A stretch of DNA of 64,000 nt, taken from assembly GCA_001938485.1 (NCBI GenBank), contig MQRK01226571.1, positions 1-64,000 of the forward strand, written 5' to 3'. Position numbers and translations under genes: made by a program. Shown here piece by piece: positions 28,010 to 44,224 of this stretch (positions are counted from its first letter, which is position 1; the number at the start of each line of letters is the position of its first letter). This stretch comes from Girardia tigrina. Taxonomy: Eukaryota. A model generated the notes under the pieces. That model ran no database searches, was not told where the DNA came from, and saw nothing but the letters and a program-made list of their open reading frames with translations.

Positions 28010-28407
28010 ATGGCGTCACGAACAAACGTTACAGCTCAGAAGTACTTGGAAGAACTGATGTTTAAGAAGAAAGAAGAAAAGCTATTAATCTTCGTGAGAC
28101 ATCATTGCAAGGAGAGATCAATAATCGACCATATAAACAACGTGAAAAAGTATATCAGTCTCTTCGATAAATCGGCGTTAGGAGATTCCGCAAAAATGGA
28201 TATTTTATGTCCTATTTTGTAAACAACTTTATTGCTCAGATCCAGAGTGAGTCGGAAGCTGATGTTACGTCGATGAATATCGACACAATGTTAATAAAAT
28301 TGATTGGCAAATTTGATTTAAAGAAATCAAAAGTTGGTCAGTTATTACCTTTGATACGTGTGAAACAGGAGGAAGGAGAAACGTTACTAGATTTCGCAAA
28401 TAGAATA
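28010..28407 (+). pseudogene. Outer element gag, N-terminal part
   Basis: The ATG overlaps the LTR end/PBS (MASRTNVT...). The frame reads ...RVKQEEGETLLDFANRI and resumes in frame as KVETFH... at 39675. Confidence 0.8.
28011..28024 (+). promoter_or_regulatory. Primer-binding site of the outer element (tRNA-Ser(CGA)-like)
   Basis: TGGCGTCACGAACA lies immediately after the LTR CA and is complementary to a tRNA 3' end ...UGUUCGUGACGCCA. Confidence 0.8.
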
Positions 28408-28559
28408 AGTTATGCGTGATTGATTAATTATTAAATATTGTTTGTTTAAATAATATATAGATTTTGTACGCGGTTTAAAATATAGTTTTGATTTGACTTT
28501 GAAAATGGATTTTAAAGAAACCAAAAACGTAACTGGTGACCACGCCGAAAATATCAACG

Positions 28560-29950
28560 CAATTACGAAAAACCAACAAAGAAATATTTTGCTTGCGTCG
28601 TTGCCGAAGAAGACTCAAGAAATTCTCAATTTCAATGTCCGTAAGTTTGACGGTAGAGATTCGCAAGAAGCGGGAAAATGGCTAAAGGATATCGATGAAT
28701 GACTGTCATTAAATGACTTGCATTTGGTGAGTGCATTTGATTTATTATTGTCTGAAGAAGCTGGAGAATTATGGAAGAATTCAAAAACGGATGAAATGAC
28801 TCAGGTGGACGCTCGAGAATGGTTTCGTGACATATTTATGAGGAAGAAGTCAATCTTAGATAATTTCATGGACTGGCGAATGTCAAGCAAGAGCTAAAAG
28901 AGAGATTTGCCACGTTTGAAATTCAGGTAAAGAAACTAATTAACAGTGTTGTTAATCAGAGTTGAGTCGGAAATAAATTTTAAATGAGTTTTTAACGAAA
29001 CGGGTGCGTAGTACCGGTCTGAGGGATTCACTGGATCTGAAACCGGAAATGAAGAGAGAAGATATGTGGACACTAGCTAAAGTCTATGAGAACCGAGAGA
29101 TCTCGGAAGATGAAAAAATGGAAGTAAACGCTTTTAATAATAAAACAAATATCAAGCAGAAGAATCCCCCAAATTATGCGCAAGCTGTGAAATAACAACC
29201 AACAAAGCAATTTCAGCAGTCTAATTTTGGTTCCAGAATATCAACGGATGAGATATTCATAGATAGGGACTTTCCAACCGGAGTAGTCCTACACAATCGG
29301 TCATTTCTGAATTCCGACAAACGTCGATGAGATAGCAGCCTTCGGTTTCTCTGAAACATATAGCTCGAAGACTCTATAATAGATGTAGGGGACTACCCCC
29401 GCCGCACGAGGAGCAACTGAAACCGGGTCAATGTTTTTGTTGCAGGGAAAATGATCACAGACGTTTTCAATGCCCATTGAAGGATAAATGTCTAATATGC
29501 GGTAAATCTGGTCATTATTTTAAGGAATGTAGTCTTTTGCAGAACAGCAGTTATCAGAGGCCACGGATGATTTTATGTGTTTATGATGAAATTCACGACA
29601 CGGCCCAATCCGGAGATGAATTAATTCTACATGATGTTGAACCGGAAAAAACCCGTTGCTTACATTTCGTCAATGGGATTGGAATAAATGATGAGAGCAA
29701 AAATCGGAATGTAGAGGAGTGGGACGAAATGCGGAAGTGAACTGACGGGAGAATGTGGAGTACGGTAGAGGTGGAAGGTGTTCGTTTAGAGATGTTGTGG
29801 GATTCAGGAGCATCGGTTACGGTGATGAATGAAGATTATTGGCGGAAGATTTGAGAACCGAGACTTTCAGAATCAGGAGTTCGATTAAGCGGTGTGTTTC
29901 CGACTGGTACAGAAATGCCCATGGGTGTTGTTTTATTAGATATTCGTTGG
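28560..29950 (+). pseudogene. Inner element gag and aspartic protease (degenerate)
   Basis: VRKFDGRDSQEAGKWLKDID; zinc knuckles CFCCRENDHRRFQC and CLICGKSGHYFKEC; protease LWDSGASVTVM. Confidence 0.85.
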
Positions 29951-30360
29951 AACAAAAAGTTCCTGCGCTATCACCACAGGACACTTATAAGGTACACGTA
30001 CCCAAAGACTTACTGAACGCGCAATTCGTTTGGTTAATTCGGGAGCACCCTAACTCACTGCAAACCCAATACACCGATCCATACCGCACACTTCATTTCG
30101 ATGCACAAAACAACACTGCAACCATCGATTTCAATGGTACCCACCGCATCGTCAAAATTTGCAAATTGAAGCCATGTATACAAATTGAAGATTGTCCCGT
30201 CGACATGCCGAAAGTCAATTCCCTTAACCAGAAAGCGTCTGTATCATTCTCACCATGGGAGCGAATGTCCGACTCCACACATCCGGTACCCATGTAATCA
30301 AAGCAGCGCTTTCAACCGTCTCCGACTTCTCACGGGGGGGGGGCTTATGTAGTGAACATT
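29950..30360 (+). mobile_element. Gypsy integrase C-terminal fragment with G-rich PPT and LTR start
   Basis: SLQTQYTDPY...KLKPC (GPY/F-type module), then a G10 run and TGTAGTG at 30348. Confidence 0.6.
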
Positions 30361-31040: not shown

Positions 31041-31369
31041 AGAATTCCATTTTACTTTATAGTTGTTGATAAATTAAATATTTATTAAGTTTTTGTGCAG
31101 CTGCAAAAAACTATTTAAAGTTCATCTAGCGGCTGATTTGATTAAATTGAAATCTGAAATACGTCATATTAACAACATCAATATGACTTTTACAACATTT
31201 ATTAATATCACAAGCACATTCACTATTGGACATTTTTCTTGATCAATATATTTCTGAATTCATACTAATTATTTTCAATAAATGAAAATCTTTGAATACA
31301 AATTATTAATTATAAAGAATCTAATTGGTTAAAATTAAATCTAAACATTTTTAAAAAAAGTACATATTG

Positions 31370-33189
31370 TTATGATAGAGATCTCAGACGGCATGGACAT
31401 GTGAGTAAGGTGCATGAACCATTGTCAGCGTTTAAAATTGTCATACATTTACGTGAGTATCCAGAACGTGCGGCAAAGTCAATGGAAGTTACGTCCTTCA
31501 AAACGAGAGAGTTAAAAACCAGAATCAAGTACCAATTTGGGGAGGATTACACACCTTTAATGAATGGGCAATAATTGGCGGATCATACAACCAGACATCT
31601 TGTGGAAGCCGGAATATGGCCAGGATATGTTAATATAGTAGAGTTGGCAAAAACGGCCGGAACAAAGAGGCTAGTTAAACCATTTTATGAATACAGACAA
31701 CAAATTAGAGCGAATCACGAAGAAAAGTATTGACACAGATATTTTAAACATCACGATTTTAATAATGGTTTCTATGATCCAGATTGAATTAGTACCAGTC
31801 ATATGCGAACAATTGAGGAGTACATACAAGAATATGGAGAACTATCTCTCAGGAAATATCACTGTAAGAGAGTGTTGTTGTTAATTTTTTAATTTTCAGA
31901 ATTGAGAATTTGATTTTTTAAAATTTCGAATTATAATCGAAATTAAAAAAAATAATAGAAAATAGAATTAAAAAAAAGAAAATAAAAAAAAGAAAATTTT
32001 TTTAAATAACAAATTTAAACTGTTGTAGATTAATAAATTTTGCAAGTTTTTAATTTCTTTTTTGATTTTGAATGGAAGATAATTCCCAACCTAACAATCA
32101 CAATACCGTCTTCTCCGATACAACCCACAATCAAGTTACAACTAAGAATGATGATGAGTGAACTATTAAGCAACCTTGATGAATTAATGGACTCAATAAA
32201 CGGTATAGATTTGTATAATTACCAAACAAGACCGTTGGGAAGCATAATCAATATCCTTAATAGTATCTGCAGCACGAGTGGGAAAAAGAAGTGGAGTTAC
32301 AACAATTAAATAAAATATTTTTTGCAAAGTGGATGACTCAAAACTCAAAGATTACATTGCAATATTTAGACCACTATGCCAGTTTTGAGTACTACATGCC
32401 ACCGATATTTGAAATTCGATGCCGAACAACAGTCAGGGACATGAAATTGGATATATTAAAGGATTATCAGTCTAAATCGACGCTGTATTATGGGATACGA
32501 GCACTGACGGATGACAATGCAGAGATAATAACCTTGGGAGTGAGTCCAATGGAAGTTTATCGTTCGGACGACAGAGAAACCTTGTTAACGGCGATAACGT
32601 GCACATCAGACGACGTCGCGAGTTATGTAAATTATAACAAGGACGCTTTGATCAACGAACTATTCGACCTTAACAAAAATTATTTTGTCAATGGAAAAAT
32701 GAAGGAAGATTCAATCTGGAGCAATAAGTATTATGTGCCGATGCAGATACAAACCGTATATGAACTCGGAAATGAGCTGCGAGAAGGATGAGAAGATGAC
32801 ATCAGGTATTTGTTAAAATGCGAAAAATATATAACCGGTTGCGAAATGGACCGTACCATACTTTTTACTTGTGGGAAATGTTAATGCAATACGGAAATAG
32901 AATATTAACAGGATGTCAACAACATTATCATATCGTTGTCAACGACAGAGCAACGGATCAGACAATCGACGTTCATGGAAAAGAACCAACGATAGAAGCC
33001 CTATATGATGCTGTCAATATTCGGACGCGAGATCCATACATTCTTATTTGGGAAGGACGACAGTTACTCAAAAATGGAGACATGAGAAAGATATTCTTTT
33101 GGTCTAGAGATACATTTACTTTTCAATTTTCATCTAGAGTTGTGGTAAGGATAGGAGGAACCGCCTTTGCCACTAAAATTTCTCTATGA
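31370..33189 (+). pseudogene. Degenerate gene(s) with about three ubiquitin-like (beta-grasp) domains, the last ending VVRIGG plus a 9-aa tail
   Basis: UBL1 FKIVIHL..MEVTSFKTRELKTRI..LMNGQ*LADH..LVEAGIWPG (~31433-31650). UBL2 FEIRCRTTVRDMKLDI..LYYGIRALTDD..IITLGV (~32345-32560). UBL3 TIDVHGKEPTIEALYDAV..LIWEGRQL..VVVRIGG (~32925-33159). Stops and frameshifts lie between the pieces. Confidence 0.6.
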
Positions 33190-33654
33190 ATCATGCAGTG
33201 AAAAAATTTGATATTTTGATTTTTTGTTATGTCATGTGTTATAAATCCCTTTTTTAAACCTTTCATAGAATTTAGAATACATAATATAAGAGCATTTCTT
33301 AATAATGTTTAATTAAATTACCTTGAGTAAAAATGGGTGAGAATCTTGCTAAGAATAAATCATAAGCACAGGATTCTTGCACCACAACAAATTATTTTTC
33401 ACTGTTTTGAGTGATAAAATAACAAAAAAAGATACACAAAAAACTTTATTATTTTAATTTGAAAAATGCGTATAATTTTGATTATTTAAACAATTGTCAA
33501 TGTACTTTGTTTTTCGAAATTTAATATTGAAATTTTGTTCAAATTTATTTTTGGTCCCCAGTTGCGAGGATTGACAAGATGGGGGACAAAAAAATACTAA
33601 TTAAATAAAAAAAGAAAAAGTTAAAAGAAGAATTATTATAGTCGTACTATCGAC

Positions 33655-34123
33655 GCTGACTTTTACTGCACCAAACTTGATCTAATGTATGCGGCACTTG
33701 GCGAGAAATACCCCGCTTTGATCAATCAAAACGAGTTCTTCTACAACAGGACAATGCAAAACCGCACACCGCCAAACAAACAAAGGAAAAAATCAAAAAT
33801 ATCGACGCCTTTGAACTTCTTCCACACCCAGCGTATAGTCCGGATCTTGCGCCATCCGACTATCACCTTTACCGCTCTATGGCACATTTTCTTCGTGGTC
33901 GCAGCTTCAATAATCTGGCCGAGGTCGAAGACGGGTGTCACCAGTTCTTCGCTTCTAAGAAGAAGGATTGATACCGCAGCGGGATCGCACAACTTGCCCA
34001 TAAATGGATTCAAGCTTTTGATTCAAATAACCTTTACTTTGAAACTTAAATGTTTTTTATTTGTTGTAAAATTATGTTTAAATTTTTAATAAAAAAATAC
34101 GAAAAGACTTTTGGTTCACCCTA
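33655..34123 (+). mobile_element. Mariner 3' half with right TIR
   Basis: LLQQDNAKPH...LPHPAYSPDLAPSDYHLYRSM..., ending GACTTTTGGTTCACCCTAA. Confidence 0.88.
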
Positions 34124-35334
34124 AACATTCCGCCGGGCGGCATTAAATAAAATAATTTAAAATTTAATGCAGAAGTCGTGGACACCACAAACTGTTTTTT
34201 AACCAACAGATATTACTATGTGCGAAACTTACTGTGTGTTTTACAACGATGCAAAAATACGACTAATATTGTTACAGTAATACTTCAATAACAAGTTAAA
34301 TAACTTTAACGATTTTAAATATTGTACAAAAATGTTCGCAGCGCCCCCAGAATTTTTCGCGGTGCACCGTTTGCTCGACACTGCAATAGACGAACATCGA
34401 CGCTCAACAAACCATTGCCAAACGATATTGTTCAATCTCTTCAAAATTTTCAAGACAAAATAGAGACTAAGTCTCATTGCAAATAAAACTTTATTTTTAA
34501 TTTCATTCATATTTTCTTTTCAATTCAAAGACATCAGCATTTCAATATCATCATTTTCCCATTCCAACATTTAAACAAAATTTTTTTATCATATTAAACA
34601 TTTTTTCTTATAAAATCATTTTTACAATGATTATTTTATCATATTAACCAAGAATTAGAAAATCACCAAAACTTTGCGAACTGTTGAATGATTAAAAAGA
34701 AAATTACCAAATAATAATAATATGAATAATTAGATAAATGTCAATGAAAAATAATACATCTCAACAAACGATCAGTTTCCGATTATTGTGAAATAACAAT
34801 CATCAAGATTGCAAAAGCAATAACAAAACAGTTTATATGAATTTAAAAATGCAAGGTTTTTCGTTACCAAACTTTTTTGAATTTTTCAATAATATATATG
34901 ACACGACGGGCGAATGGTTGTGGCCGGCGATTGAATATGCACCTGAAACCACGGTGCTTTTCCTGGCGAGATGGAGGGAACGGAACGAACACAGCAGAGA
35001 TTAATTTTCCGAGTTTAGATTGCGCTATTAAAACGGGAAGTGGGTCGCAATCTACCCCACGTGCGATGTAGTCCATATTGACAAGGTAGTTGATCAAACT
35101 ACCGCGAGTCGAATAGCGATGCGTTCGATCTAACTCGATAATTTGGTTAAACGTTTTTACTCTCACGATCGATCCGATGTCTCAAGAATAGTTTTTGAAA
35201 TTCATCGTTGCCGCCAGTAATATCGCGTCTTCATCGTAATTTAAGTAAAATCGTGTTGTTGTCGACTGCATATTTAAAACTCGCAACCAAGTCATTTAAT
35301 TATTTATTTCATTCAAACAATTTCTTTGTATCAC

Positions 35335-39674: not shown

Positions 39675-42600
39675 AAAGTGGAAACTTTTCATTTACCAGT
39701 AAAGTTGGATAATATTCTTGTAAAGATATTTCGACATAGTATAAGAGACAAAAATGTAGCAAAAGTATTGAAAATATTGAATCCATCCACAATAGCAGAT
39801 GCTTTAACAATGGTTAGAGAAGAAGACTGCGAAAAAGTTGATAATAATAATCATGAATTCTATAAAATGAACAAAAATATAGAAATATCAGAGTTATTGC
39901 AGAAAATCAAGAAGTTAAAGTAAAAAAATAAACAACTACGAGATGAGATATCAAAACTGGAAGATCGATGTTTTCCGAAGACTAACAATTTTGAAAGAAA
40001 TAACAAATACGAAAACGTTAAATGCTACAAATGCAATAAAAATGGGCATATTAAGAAATGTTGCAGAACAATAATATGTTTTGAATGCGGCGGAAATCAC
40101 AAAAAAACTCACTGTCCGAACCTCAAGACGGTGAAAGTGATGAAGGAAGAAGAACTATCGGATACCCAGAGCATTAACTCGACATCTCATTCTTCAAGAT
40201 GAGAGACTAGGCAGTTTAATGATATTTCAAAATCTAAACCAGAAAAACGGGATTTAACTAACCAGTATGTGGATTACATCCATGGCACGACCAAAAAGCC
40301 TAAAAGGCAACTATAAAAAGAGGTGCTGATGAAAAAGTCGTCTACAATAAACAAACCCATTGTTCAATTTACTATTGATAACAGAAAAATAAATGTTATG
40401 TTTGACACTAGAGCCGAGTTAAACGTGATAAGCAAAAGCCTTGTAAAACGTTTAACGGAAGAATCGGGCATAAGGATATATCCATCAGAAACGAAAGTCA
40501 GATGTGCCAACGATCAAACAGTAATTTGCGAAGGAAAAATTAAAGTTTCGGTAAATTTTGGTCGTATAGCAACGAAACATGTTTTTGATATCATGCCAGA
40601 TATATCACCAGATATTGTTATTGGATGTATGTTCAATTATTAGACAAAATATGGATAACTTACCGGAAAAGGTTAAGAATGCCACCATGGAGATAATTCG
40701 GCAGAATATAGAAATTTTTAGCAAATATACTTTAGACGTTGGTTTCACAAACATTATCGAACATTCCATAAAAACAGAAGAAGCAAAACCAATTGTATTT
40801 AAACCTCGAAGGATTTCAATAGGTTTAGAAGAAGCATGAAAAAATATGGTATAAGCGTCAGGTCAGAGATTGATTCTGTCGAAATTCAAAATGTTATTGT
40901 TCCGTTAGTTTCAGCCACCAAAGCTGCGATGACTTTAAACTAATCAATACCGTATATAAGAGTTTGGATGCGAATGAAGGGACAAAAAGAGCTCAGAAGT
41001 TTTTAATTAAGCGCATTTATTTTATGTAATAATGTAGAATTATCCGGATCTCGAGAGTTATTTGTGAAAGATACTGTGTTAGACAAAAATATGCAGAAAT
41101 TATTAATATCCGATTATTTATTATTTATGGGGGATAAACTGGAAATGACAGAGAAAGATTTCATTTGTAATTCCTTAGTTACTGCACATGAATGATTTAT
41201 ATGGGTTCGCATATATATGCCGGATGGAGGTGTCAAAATTTTACATGCTGTATCTTTTTTAGGGCATATGGAAGAATGGAAAGACGAAATGATACAATGT
41301 ACCAAGAAAAGCATTTTAGTTTATCATAAGTATCAAAGGAAAGAGAAGTATCCAAATTAACTGATGTATCTTCAATTATTAGACAAAATATGGACAACTT
41401 ACCGGAAAAGGTTAAAAATTCCACCATGGAGATAATTCGGCAGAATATGGAAATTTTTAACAAATATACTTTAGACGTTGGTTTCACAAACATTATCGAA
41501 CATTCCATAAAAACAGGAGAAGCAAAACCAATTGCATTTAAACCTAGAAGGATTCCAATAGGTTTAGAAGAAGCTGTAAATACTTAAGCAAAGGAGTTAG
41601 AAGAGGCGGGTATAATCAGGCAAAGTAATTCTCCGTGGAATTTCCCATTAGTAATCATTTAAAAGAAAAATGGAGGTATACGATTATGTATTGACTAACG
41701 GGGATTAAATGCAAAGACTGAACGTCCAATATATCCGATCCCATCTAGCAAAGAAATTTTCGATGCGATAGAAGAAGCGAAATATTTTTCTACTGTAGGC
41801 ATATCAAGCGGATATTATCAAATACCTATAAAAGAGGAAGATATAAAGAAAACGGCATTTACAACAAAATACGGGCAATACGAATTTACCCGAATGCCAT
41901 TCGGTTTGTGTCAGCTCTAGCTACATTCCAAAAAATGATGAATCTTATTATGCAAAGAGAAAACTGGTTAACATGTCTGATTGATTTGGATGACGTCCTC
42001 GTTTTTGGAAGGACAATAGAAGAGCACAATAACCGATTAAGTTTAGTGCTTTAGAGGATAAAAGAAGCAGGTCTTAAATTGTCTGCTGAGAAATATTGCA
42101 TTTTGAAAAGCAGTGTATGGTATCTTGGTCACATAATAGATGCGGAAGGGGTGAAAACGGACCCTGAAAAATTGGGTGCGATAAAAAATTGGCATATTTC
42201 AAATTGCATAAAGGAGTTACAATCGTTTCTACGATTATATAAATATTATAGAAGATTCATTAAAAATTATACCATGTTATCGGAACCTCTCACTTCGATG
42301 ATTAAGACTGATTCAAAAATTTAGTGGAACGCGGATAAAATTAATTCGTTTAATAAACTGAAAGATGCTTTATCCTCCCCAACCGTTTTAGCTCTTCCAA
42401 CAACCGACGGTCATTACATACTGGACACCGATGCTTCACAAAACTCAATTGGTGCAGTATTATCGCAAATACAAAATGGTTCTGAACGTGTTCTGACATA
42501 CGCTTCAAAAACCCTAACTAAAAGTCAAAAAAAATATTGCATTACTCGAAAAGAACTGCTGGCAGTGTATGTTTTTGTTTTGAAATTTAAACATTATTTA

Positions 42601-44224
42601 TTAGGTCATAACTTTACGGTCAGAACAGACCACAAAGCTTTAAAATGGTTCTTAAATTGAGACAGTCCAAATGCGTCGTAATTTTGTGTGTGTAAGTCAG
42701 AGTTAGAAGTATATGATATGACAATAGAATACTGGAAAGGAAACGATCAGGCGAATGCCGACGCTCTATCAAGATTGGGTTATTGTGAACAATGCACTCT
42801 TAATTATAAAGAACCACTGAAAATACGAAACGTTAAAGTTTTCGAAGACAGTTCAAGCGATTCAAGCGATGAAAAAGCTATATGCAAATTATTTATAAAT
42901 GATGGCAATCAATTTAAAGATGTTGTAATTGTATGGAATATTAAAATGATTACAAAAAGTATAACCATAACCGAAGTACCTACGGAAATCAAAGCAGATA
43001 AATGTTTTAAACAACTATTTTCACGTTTATCAGATCTAAGACTACGAGGATACTTACTTTATTTACTAGACAATGACATTTACAAACTAGTTATTCAAAA
43101 GTCTGATAGACATATTATTATTCAAAAAATGCACGAAGGTCTGGGGGCATACAGGTATAGAGAGAATCACAGTTGCATGAAAAAATGAATTCTACTGGCC
43201 AAGTATAGATCACGATATAAAAGATTTTTTTACTAAGTGTGAAGCGTGTGCTAAATTAAAATGTAAAAACGGTCGTGGTAGAGCACCAATTACCCATATA
43301 GAAGCAAACAGACCATTTGAAGGATAAGACCTAAAGAAGGATATTGCTATATTTTAGGAATAATCGACAACTTCTCCAAATATGTAGCTTTAATCCCTCT
43401 TAGAACAATAGATTAAAAATCTAAAATAAAATTATTATGAGATCAATGGACATCAAAGTACGGGAAACAAGAGCATATACATTCAGATAACGGTTCTTAT
43501 TTTTTTTCTGCTGAATTTAAAACCTTTTGTTTTTCGATGAATATTAATCAAAATCAAAGCTCACCTTATTATCCGCAATCAAATGGATTAAATGAACGAA
43601 GTTTTCGCACAGCTAAAGAAATGATAAATGTGTATATGTATTCTCGTAACACACGAGATTGGACAGAAGTTCTTACGATTGTGGAATACGGTTTGCGATG
43701 TGAAATGCAGAAATCCAGGGGGTATAGCCCCTTGGAAGCAGTATATAGAAGAAAACACTCATTACTAAATTTTATTGGTAAAAACGAGGGCAGAAGAACA
43801 GAAAGTGAATATGTATTGTAGTTAAAGAACACGCAACAAAAGCTGAATAAATTAGTCTCAGATAATATAAAAAATAATTCGAAGAATTCAGATAATCTAT
43901 CAGAAACATGTGGTATACCAAGCTCAGAGTTGGAGACAAAGTGTTAATAAAAGAAACGGGGAGAAAAGATCAGGAAAAACAAAATACGTCGGACCGTTTA
44001 CTATAAAGAAGATAAATAATGATTGGACTTATGAATTATTGGACAAAGTATCTCATACACTCCTGAAAAGAAACTACAATCAAGTTAAAAGATATAAAGG
44101 AAGATTAAGTATTCCTTGTGATCGGACATCAAGTGTATCATCCAGCTCTGTCGCAAAAACGATAGTGAAGGATAAGAGATATCCAGTAAGAAGCAAAAGA
44201 AATCCAATTCCAAAATATCGGTGA
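39675..44224 (+). pseudogene. Outer element gag C-terminus and pol (PR-RT-RH-IN), many stops/frameshifts
   Basis: Knuckles CYKCNKNGHIKKCC and CFECGGNHKKTHC; PR MFDTRAELNV; RT SPWNFPL, RMPFGL, LDDVLVFG; RH LDTDAS, TRKELLA, TDHKAL, NADALSR; IN HSDNG, YPQSNGLNER, YVGPF. Confidence 0.93.
40633..40837 (+). repeat. ~205-bp copy of 41372-41575 inserted upstream within pol
   Basis: Near-identical TCAATTATTAGACAAAATATGGA...GGTTTAGAAGAAGC occurs at both sites. Confidence 0.9.

What the first reader, a model, noticed from the sequence alone, without database searches (positions are those of the whole stretch)
31370..33189. Tandem ubiquitin-like domain gene ending in diglycine plus a short tail, inside a retroelement
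Seen by manual translation: three segments follow the ubiquitin beta-grasp pattern (xEV..T.xxLK.xI....LxxxGxxLxD...L...GI). The last ends VVVRIGG-TAFATKISL*. A C2H2-like tail (DLRRHGHVSKVH) precedes UBL1. Established: ubiquitin, NEDD8, SUMO and ISG15 precursors have a GG motif followed by a cleavable extension. Inference: a decayed copy of an unrecognised, possibly conjugatable, multi-UBL protein carried by a mobile element.
Basis: partly seen in the sequence, partly recalled or inferred. Interest (0 to 1): 0.75.

Follow-up and report, generated by a model that had tools for sequence, protein, structure and literature searches.

The report
Giant retrotransposon's ubiquitin-like domain array
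This is a broken piece of a giant envelope-carrying retrotransposon whose single long protein holds a conserved row of predicted ubiquitin-like domains that likely dock on host proteins; the reported 'diglycine tail' is an accident, read from the back strand of an unrelated transposon next to the break.

Summary
The ubiquitin-like folds are real; the diglycine is not. 31386-33113 is a decayed fragment of a multicopy Ty3/gypsy LTR element. In relatives the frame runs on past UBL3, and 0 of 20 other distinct UBL3 ends carry GG. The GG tail is the antisense strand of an adjacent hAT-like transposase, joined at a microhomology. The 'C2H2 tail' has no Cys pair. Relatives show the parent: gag - about five UBLs spaced by helical domains - BCL-2-like - env - protease - dUTPase - RT - RNase H - integrase, in one frame in one family. 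That is the layout of planarian Burro giant elements, where one SUMO-like motif was already noted (PMC6431247). Models of a relative give beta-grasp matches for UBL1, UBL3 (Z 8-9) and UBL4 (Z 11.7); UBL2 and UBL5 stay low-confidence. The array is kept across families 25-35% identical, with dN/dS about 0.1-0.3. It likely works as a non-conjugated docking scaffold. Earlier scan notes record a Burro-type LTR in this genome, not this array. Side find: a separate host family of multi-UBL genes that do end in GG.

The parts
31386..31862 (+). 5' piece of the retroelement polyprotein fragment: end of a helical domain, UBL1, start of helical spacer H1; stops at 31572 and 31731, frame break near 31783
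   Evidence: 84-89% DNA identity to relatives; tblastn to P0001
31428..31655 (+). UBL1 (predicted beta-grasp), interrupted by the stop at 31572
   Evidence: relative's model pLDDT mostly 63-84, VIA Z 9.1-8.0 to Ddi1 UBL, Hub1, FAT10, ISG15, UBX, ubiquitin; coordinates
31863..32096 (.). 234-bp high-copy insert, TG...CA ends, 5-bp target duplication (31858-31862 and 32097-32101); likely a solo LTR
   Evidence: (40 of 40 scored candidates match, 2210 candidates)
32097..33113 (+). 3' piece of the fragment: rest of H1, UBL2, helical spacer H2, UBL3; frame breaks near 32264 and 32800, stop at 32789
32330..32599 (+). UBL2 (likely beta-grasp, not shown: low model confidence)
   Evidence: strand/helix order; hhalign to UBL4 probability 46%, E 2e-4; Atlas UBL clusters at 0.82, a lead only
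32914..33113 (+). UBL3 (predicted beta-grasp), cut off at the start of its last strand
   Evidence: relative's model pLDDT 76-85, VIA Z 8.3, rmsd 1.8 over 72 residues to SUMO; homology end
33114..33120 (.). junction: short sequence shared by the gypsy piece and the hAT-like element (microhomology)
33129..33636 (-). internally deleted remnant of an hAT (Buster-like) DNA transposon; its back strand gives the apparent GG tail at 33154-33159
   Evidence: DUF4371 E 0.0022, under cut-off, in a relative; family name rests partly on recalled motifs
33640..34120 (+). mariner-type transposase remnant lying inside the hAT-like remnant
   Evidence: Pfam DDE_3 E 3.5e-06; gap in hAT homology 33636-34125
31167..31368 (.). 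202-bp high-copy repeat on the left flank, unrelated to the fragment
   Evidence: 40 of 40 scored candidates match, 2087 candidates
28397..29961 (+). gag-protease part of a different LTR family; neighbour, not the parent

Best explanation
The locus is a dead 1.5-kb fragment of the accessory region of a giant envelope-carrying Ty3/gypsy retrotransposon of Burro-like layout, in which about five predicted ubiquitin-like domains, spaced by helical domains, sit inside one polyprotein between Gag and a BCL-2-like domain and likely act as a non-conjugated docking scaffold for host ubiquitin-system proteins. Shown: the fragment's origin, its breaks, the foreign origin of the GG, the domain order in relatives, purifying selection on the array. 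Predicted: beta-grasp folds for UBL1, UBL3, UBL4 (good), UBL2 and UBL5 (weak). Inferred: the element's aspartic protease would cut the polyprotein and free the accessory part on the cytosolic side, upstream of the envelope's hydrophobic leader; the UBL surfaces would bind host receptors (p97/Cdc48, proteasome UBL receptors, deubiquitinases or ligases) and, with the BCL-2-like domain, would protect the element's products or its host cell. Odds: identity of the locus about 0.95, GG artefact about 0.97, docking-scaffold function about 0.5.
For: 87 matches among 40 scored of 2697 candidates in the own genome; relatives are contiguous across the 234-bp insert and run on past 33119. Domain order by Pfam: Ty3 capsid, CCHC, weak ubiquitin (E 0.0014-0.05, under cut-off), Monjiviricetes fusion protein (E 9e-84), protease, dUTPase (E 0.0055), RT, RNase H, integrase; one open frame of 4142 residues including gap positions. 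BCL-2-like region: 6 of 15 aligned members hit PF00452, best E 0.007; 56 of 57 PDB hits are Bcl-xL/Bcl-2, best E 0.02. Folds: UBL4 Z 11.7, rmsd 1.8 over 79; UBL1 Z 9.1-8.0, UBL3 Z 8.3; the 50 listed rows of the unbiased search are nearly all ubiquitin-clan domains. The same order of blocks recurs in family D at about 25% identity and UBL4/UBL5-like domains in family C. dN/dS of UBL blocks within families 0.02-0.34, against 0.00-0.02 for env and RT. Burro layout with Ubi2/SUMO-like before BCL-2 and in-frame env: PMC6431247 section 7, read whole.
Against: No binding partner or expression was tested. UBL1 and UBL3 Z-scores (8-9) are near the level that the tool calls common, and both models have mean pLDDT under 60 (47.3, 58.1). 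UBL2 did not fold (pLDDT 24-47) and the second Atlas search gave no usable hit. The residue at ubiquitin's Ile44 position differs between families (by eye), so close ubiquitin mimicry is unlikely. The BCL-2 scores are under Pfam's cut-off. The UBLs show only weak likeness to each other (hhalign E 6e-6 to 0.6). No relative outside this genome's own families was found (8 hits in 1.84 billion proteins; those checked, P0002 and P0008, have 78-98% matches in G000). MATH, BIR and ankyrin motifs of Burro were not found in the element frames scanned.
Confidence: 0.8

Rival explanations
1. One reading: decayed copy of a conjugatable multi-UBL modifier (ISG15/FAT10-like) whose GG is exposed by trimming a short tail.
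For: The window's last open piece does end GG plus nine residues; a random 25-codon read-through gives GG before a stop in only 1.7% of 20,000 trials.
Against: GG in 0 of 20 other distinct UBL3 ends; the tail is the back strand of a transposase, and all 10 transposon copies shown carry the same antisense GG; relatives run on for thousands of residues.
Confidence: 0.02
2. The UBLs are built-in degradation or folding handles: because Gag, Env and Pol are made one-to-one from a single frame, the UBL array would route part of the polyprotein to p97 or the proteasome, or help the giant chain fold, and so set protein ratios without targeting host pathways.
For: Single-frame layout; best unbiased matches of UBL1 include UBX domains bound to p97 and proteasome-bound UBLs (rows tied within 1 Z); purifying selection.
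Against: The array evolves about ten times faster than env and RT and sits beside a BCL-2-like domain, which fits host-facing work; UBX versus UBL cannot be told apart at these Z-scores.
Confidence: 0.25
3. The UBLs are cleavage signals for host ubiquitin proteases, as with ubiquitin inserts in cytopathic pestivirus polyproteins (PMC13517609, passages read).
For: Internal UBLs in a viral-type polyprotein; BVDV polyprotein fragments are among Foldseek hits; family B has a GG about ten residues behind UBL5.
Against: No GG behind UBL3; the family-B GG is followed by Pro and is absent from the family A and D sequences printed; the element has its own protease.
Confidence: 0.06
4. The UBL region is neutral captured cargo with no function for the element.
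For: This genome's elements often capture host gene pieces (earlier notes, untested).
Against: dN/dS 0.02-0.34 in every UBL block tested within families; block order kept across families 25-35% identical.
Confidence: 0.03

Closest known systems
Burro / GYPSM1 giant gypsy-like LTR retrotransposons of dugesiid planarians (PMC6431247, section 7 read whole; Grohme 2018 and Jurka 2007 not read, known only through that section)
   Same: One huge frame with Gag and CCHC knuckles, a ubiquitin/SUMO-like motif ahead of a BCL-2-like motif, in-frame mononegavirus-type env between gag and pol, dUTPase between protease and RT; element length of 26-27 kb for internal region plus one LTR in two family-B contigs.
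   Different: The text names one Ubi2/SUMO-like motif; here there are about five UBLs alternating with helical domains. MATH, BIR, ankyrin, Smc and midasin-like motifs were not found in the element frames scanned. Figure 2A could not be seen and may show more.
GAG-ENV-POL errantiviruses with HSV/gB-type env in Nematoda, Bryozoa and Platyhelminthes (PMC13524379; abstract, passages, and one of seven supplementary files searched)
   Same: Ty3/gypsy pol, env placed between gag and pol.
   Different: 'ubiquitin' occurs 0 times in the main text and in supplementary file 1; no accessory array is described in the passages seen.
Conjugatable two-domain modifiers ISG15 and FAT10; ubiquitin, NEDD8, SUMO precursors (established knowledge)
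   Same: Beta-grasp fold.
   Different: No GG at the end of the last strand, no free-standing short precursor.
Integral UBL domains: USP7's C-terminal UBL array, coronavirus nsp3 Ubl1/Ubl2 (recalled; nsp3 papers seen only as search listings)
   Same: Non-conjugated UBLs inside a large multidomain or viral polyprotein.
   Different: No sequence relation shown; no deubiquitinase domain found beside these UBLs.

Membership tests
Conjugatable ubiquitin-like modifiers | beta-grasp fold | tested here: met
   On a relative: UBL1 Z up to 9.1 (rmsd 2.1-4.3), UBL3 Z 8.3 (rmsd 1.8, 72 aligned); UBL2 unresolved
Conjugatable ubiquitin-like modifiers | conserved GG right after the last strand | tested here: not met
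   0 of 20 other distinct UBL3 ends; window GG comes from antisense transposon DNA
Conjugatable ubiquitin-like modifiers | free-standing precursor with short C-terminal extension | tested here: not met
   relatives continue into BCL-2-like, env and pol
Conjugatable ubiquitin-like modifiers | activation by an E1 and transfer to substrates | not testable with these tools
   needs biochemistry
C2H2 zinc finger | Cys pair followed by spaced His pair | tested here: not met
   no Cys pair in the rows; second His replaced by Tyr, Ala or Asp in relatives; no Pfam hit
Burro-like giant gypsy elements | gag with CCHC knuckles, env, protease, dUTPase, RT, RNase H, integrase in one frame | tested here: met
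   family B; family D in two frames of 3314 and 1859 residues; family A (the window's) in the same order in broken pieces
Burro-like giant gypsy elements | ubiquitin/SUMO-like motif upstream of a BCL-2-like motif, before env | tested here: met
   BCL-2 scores are under Pfam's cut-off
Burro-like giant gypsy elements | internal region up to 25 kb, over 30 kb with LTRs | tested here: inconclusive
   97-98% identical direct repeats 26.2 and 27.5 kb apart in two contigs, both cut by assembly gaps; nested inserts not excluded
Burro-like giant gypsy elements | MATH/TRAF-C, BIR and ankyrin motifs | tested here: inconclusive
   none in the element frames; a TRAF frame beside one family-D copy lies outside the DNA shared with a second copy; many gaps
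Burro-like giant gypsy elements | RT groups with Burro in a tree; host is a dugesiid planarian | not tested
   no Burro sequence was obtained from any tool; the host was not identified
GAG-ENV-POL errantiviruses (PMC13524379) | Ty3/gypsy pol with env between gag and pol | tested here: met
GAG-ENV-POL errantiviruses (PMC13524379) | env of HSV/gB structural type | tested here: inconclusive
   PF24664 Monjiviricetes fusion E 9e-84; env was not folded

The most novel reading that the evidence does not exclude
Giant envelope-carrying retrotransposons of this lineage encode a five-UBL decoy array plus a BCL-2 homologue as a counter-defence module against the host's ubiquitin-based immunity, possibly against the host's own multi-UBL, GG-ended modifier family found here; this would be a retrotransposon counterpart of viral anti-ISG15 and anti-apoptosis proteins.
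Probability: 0.15. Interest if true: 0.75.

Novelty: new variant of a known kind. Interest (0 to 1): 0.4.

Why it matters
The locus itself is a dead fragment and the headline claim fails. What remains is that the large unannotated stretch of Burro-like polyproteins resolves into a conserved, selected array of ubiquitin-like domains next to a BCL-2-like domain. That turns the published suggestion that these elements meddle with host ubiquitination and apoptosis (PMC6431247) into defined 75-residue domains that can be expressed alone and tested for partners. [quoted passage not shown]

Tried and rejected
Pfam on the window's own UBL pieces: no ubiquitin hit. phmmer of P0001 against PDB: only low-complexity p300 hits, E 0.11 or worse. 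Protein searches: 1 hit among 7996 scored candidates; 8 hits in 1.84 billion, all unnamed singletons; these libraries hold few eukaryotic transposon proteins, so host range is open. No RNA holder listed; expression is untested. Second Atlas search: no usable hit. Host ubiquitin or the host multi-UBL family as donor: the host profile gave no domain of 3 bits or more in 11 element or window frames, hhalign E 0.02 or worse; not supported. One row of the UBL3 profile was mis-cut; one search repeats it correctly. Helical spacer before UBL5 as a TFIIS N-terminal-like bundle: E 0.26, third of 8 weak hits, no Pfam support; a lead only. Spacers as repeats of one unit: hhalign probability 0.9%; not shown. 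The 778-residue multi-UBL frame and the TRAF frame upstream of two family-D copies were considered as element cargo and rejected, as they lie outside the shared DNA. The upstream gag-protease as parent: rejected. A systematic GG count was obtained for UBL3 only; for UBL1, 2, 4 and 5 the statement rests on the printed alignments and frames. No complex was predicted, as no partner is named. Literature: eight searches listed no paper that describes a multi-UBL array in an LTR retrotransposon; the library lacks most subscription papers.

Full report
Observation. The three segments and the GG-ended last piece are in the sequence as described. The region is AT-rich animal-type DNA crowded with transposon remnants. 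Pfam finds no ubiquitin family in the window's own pieces.

It is a repeat. A DNA search of the own genome gave 87 matches among 40 scored of 2697 candidates. Homology covers 31386-31862 and 32097-33113/33119; relatives are contiguous across the gap. The gap, 31863-32096, is a 234-bp high-copy insert with TG...CA ends and a 5-bp target duplication, likely a solo LTR. The window copy has stops at 31572, 31731 and 32789 and frame breaks near 31783, 32264, 32800 and 33113. A tree of the UBL2-H2 segment places it in family A.

The GG is foreign. Relatives continue in frame behind UBL3; GG was found in 1 of 21 distinct UBL3 ends, the window's own, and in none of the 13 family-B rows shown. DNA from 33129 on matches another repeat family of about 2.2 kb whose minus strand encodes an hAT (Buster-like) transposase (DUF4371 under cut-off; the name rests partly on recalled motifs). 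The GG codons are the back strand of a Pro-Pro of that transposase, shifted by one base, and all 10 copies shown read GG there. The two elements meet at a short shared sequence at 33114-33120. By the relative's model the native last strand of UBL3 starts at the junction, so the window copy lacks it. Against my reading: a GG so soon after a random junction is uncommon, 1.7% of 20,000 trials; but its source is seen directly. The 'C2H2-like tail' is the end of a helical domain: no Cys pair, variable second His. The gag-protease upstream (28397-29961) is a different family with no link to the fragment, and the left flank is another short repeat.

The parent element. Longer stretches show gag (Ty3 capsid, CCHC), a long accessory region, a mononegavirus-type fusion protein, protease, RT, RNase H and integrase. 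Family B, about 33% identical, has this as one open frame of 4142 residues including gap positions, with a weak dUTPase between protease and RT. Family D, about 25% identical, keeps the same order of blocks; family C has UBL4- and UBL5-like domains before env. Two family-B contigs have 97-98% identical direct repeats 26.2 and 27.5 kb apart, cut by gaps. Just before env lies a BCL-2-like domain: 56 of 57 PDB hits are Bcl-xL or Bcl-2, best E 0.02, and 6 of 15 members hit PF00452, best E 0.007, all under the cut-off.

Folds. A 1046-residue natural frame of family A (P0001) folded with mean pLDDT 47; four blocks show beta-grasp order. UBL4 aligns to ubiquitin at Z 11.7, rmsd 1.8 over 79 residues. 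A second model of the part that matches the window (mean pLDDT 58) gives UBL1 Z 9.1-8.0 and UBL3 Z 8.3 against UBL, UBX, SUMO and ubiquitin, and nearly only ubiquitin-clan rows in the unbiased search. These Z-scores are moderate and do not pick a subfamily. UBL2 has the right order of elements but pLDDT under 50; support is indirect (hhalign to UBL4 46%; Atlas 0.82; none). UBL5 has pLDDT 43-60. So three UBLs are well predicted and two are likely.

Selection. Pairwise dN/dS within families is 0.10-0.34 for UBL blocks in family A and 0.02-0.28 in family B, against 0.00-0.02 for env and RT (simple counting method, few pairs, between-family values saturated). The array was functional for the element and evolves faster than its core.

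How it likely works. Inference: the polyprotein is cut by the element's protease, the accessory part stays in the cytosol upstream of the envelope's hydrophobic leader, and its UBLs dock on host ubiquitin-system proteins without being conjugated, while the BCL-2-like domain acts on cell death. I put this function at about even odds. The main rival is a degradation or folding handle that sets protein ratios from a single frame (0.25). Host-protease cleavage signals as in pestiviruses (PMC13517609, passages) are unlikely (0.06): the only GG seen near a UBL end is in family B, about ten residues behind UBL5 and followed by Pro.

Comparison. PMC6431247 (section 7 read whole) describes planarian Burro elements with in-frame env between gag and pol, dUTPase between protease and RT, and a Ubi2/SUMO-like motif before BCL-2. 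The parent matches this layout; MATH, BIR and ankyrin motifs were not found and no RT tree with Burro could be made, so I call it Burro-like, not Burro. PMC13524379 (abstract, passages, one of seven supplementary files) reports GAG-ENV-POL elements in flatworms, nematodes and bryozoans and never mentions ubiquitin; its other six files and the figures of both papers were not seen and may bear on novelty. PMC6338049 (passages) and PMC11410931 (passages) have no mention of ubiquitin. Eight searches listed no description of a multi-UBL array. Earlier scan notes: nothing by sequence; one note of a Burro-type solo LTR in this genome, which I did not test.

Verdict. Observation partly confirmed; the conjugatable-modifier reading is refuted. 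The locus is a dead fragment; the underlying feature is a new variant of a known kind, a conserved multi-UBL array in Burro-like polyproteins. Interest 0.4. The host multi-UBL family that does end in GG, unrelated in sequence to this array, deserves its own follow-up.

Noticed in passing
L235:3517-5850:+ (G000:C187624) and L244-L255: A family of intronless multi-UBL frames (up to about ten units; Pfam ubiquitin E 1.5e-58, 8 stretches). All 7 distinct members whose end was printed (of 12 loci, three being one gene, three giving no printed end) have GG right after the last UBL: three stop there, four carry a tail of 2-35 residues. These are the real candidates for a conjugatable multi-UBL modifier; one paper search listed nothing on them.
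   Followed up: partly
L196-L208: Very many near-canonical ubiquitin copies in the genome (150 of 150 scored over cut-off, 3445 candidates). Of 13 fetched, 11 join a captured HSP90 piece to ubiquitin (10 ending GG, one AG) and 1 joins a PRMT piece to ubiquitin; of 4 such frames scanned, 2 show BEL/Pao-type gag (DUF1759) behind it. This looks like a host-cleavable ubiquitin leader on a retrotransposon polyprotein, as in pestiviruses.
   Followed up: partly
L021:3211-3453:+: An 81-residue ubiquitin frame on the opposite strand inside the env region of a family-A copy.
   Followed up: no
L095:549-4064:+, L160:2405-7981:+, L237:5468-8983:+: Behind the integrase the polyprotein runs on for 800-1000 residues with hydrophobic segments and no Pfam hit; unexplained.
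   Followed up: no
L159:572-10000:+, residues about 560-1140: Family D has a much longer acidic insert between the zinc knuckles and the UBL array than families A and B.
   Followed up: no
L239:7045-8286:-: An intronless TRAF frame (RING-like, zinc fingers, MATH) cut off where a family-D element begins.
   Followed up: partly
L231:3424-9526: Frames with a phospholipase A2-like and a double jelly-roll-like domain and an integrase-like piece, likely a Polinton-type element (label recalled).
   Followed up: no
window:30690-31040: A second mariner-like remnant (helix-turn-helix end, by eye) left of the fragment.
   Followed up: no
window:8238-9074 and 41387-43764: Two further decayed gypsy pol remnants of other families.
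   Followed up: no
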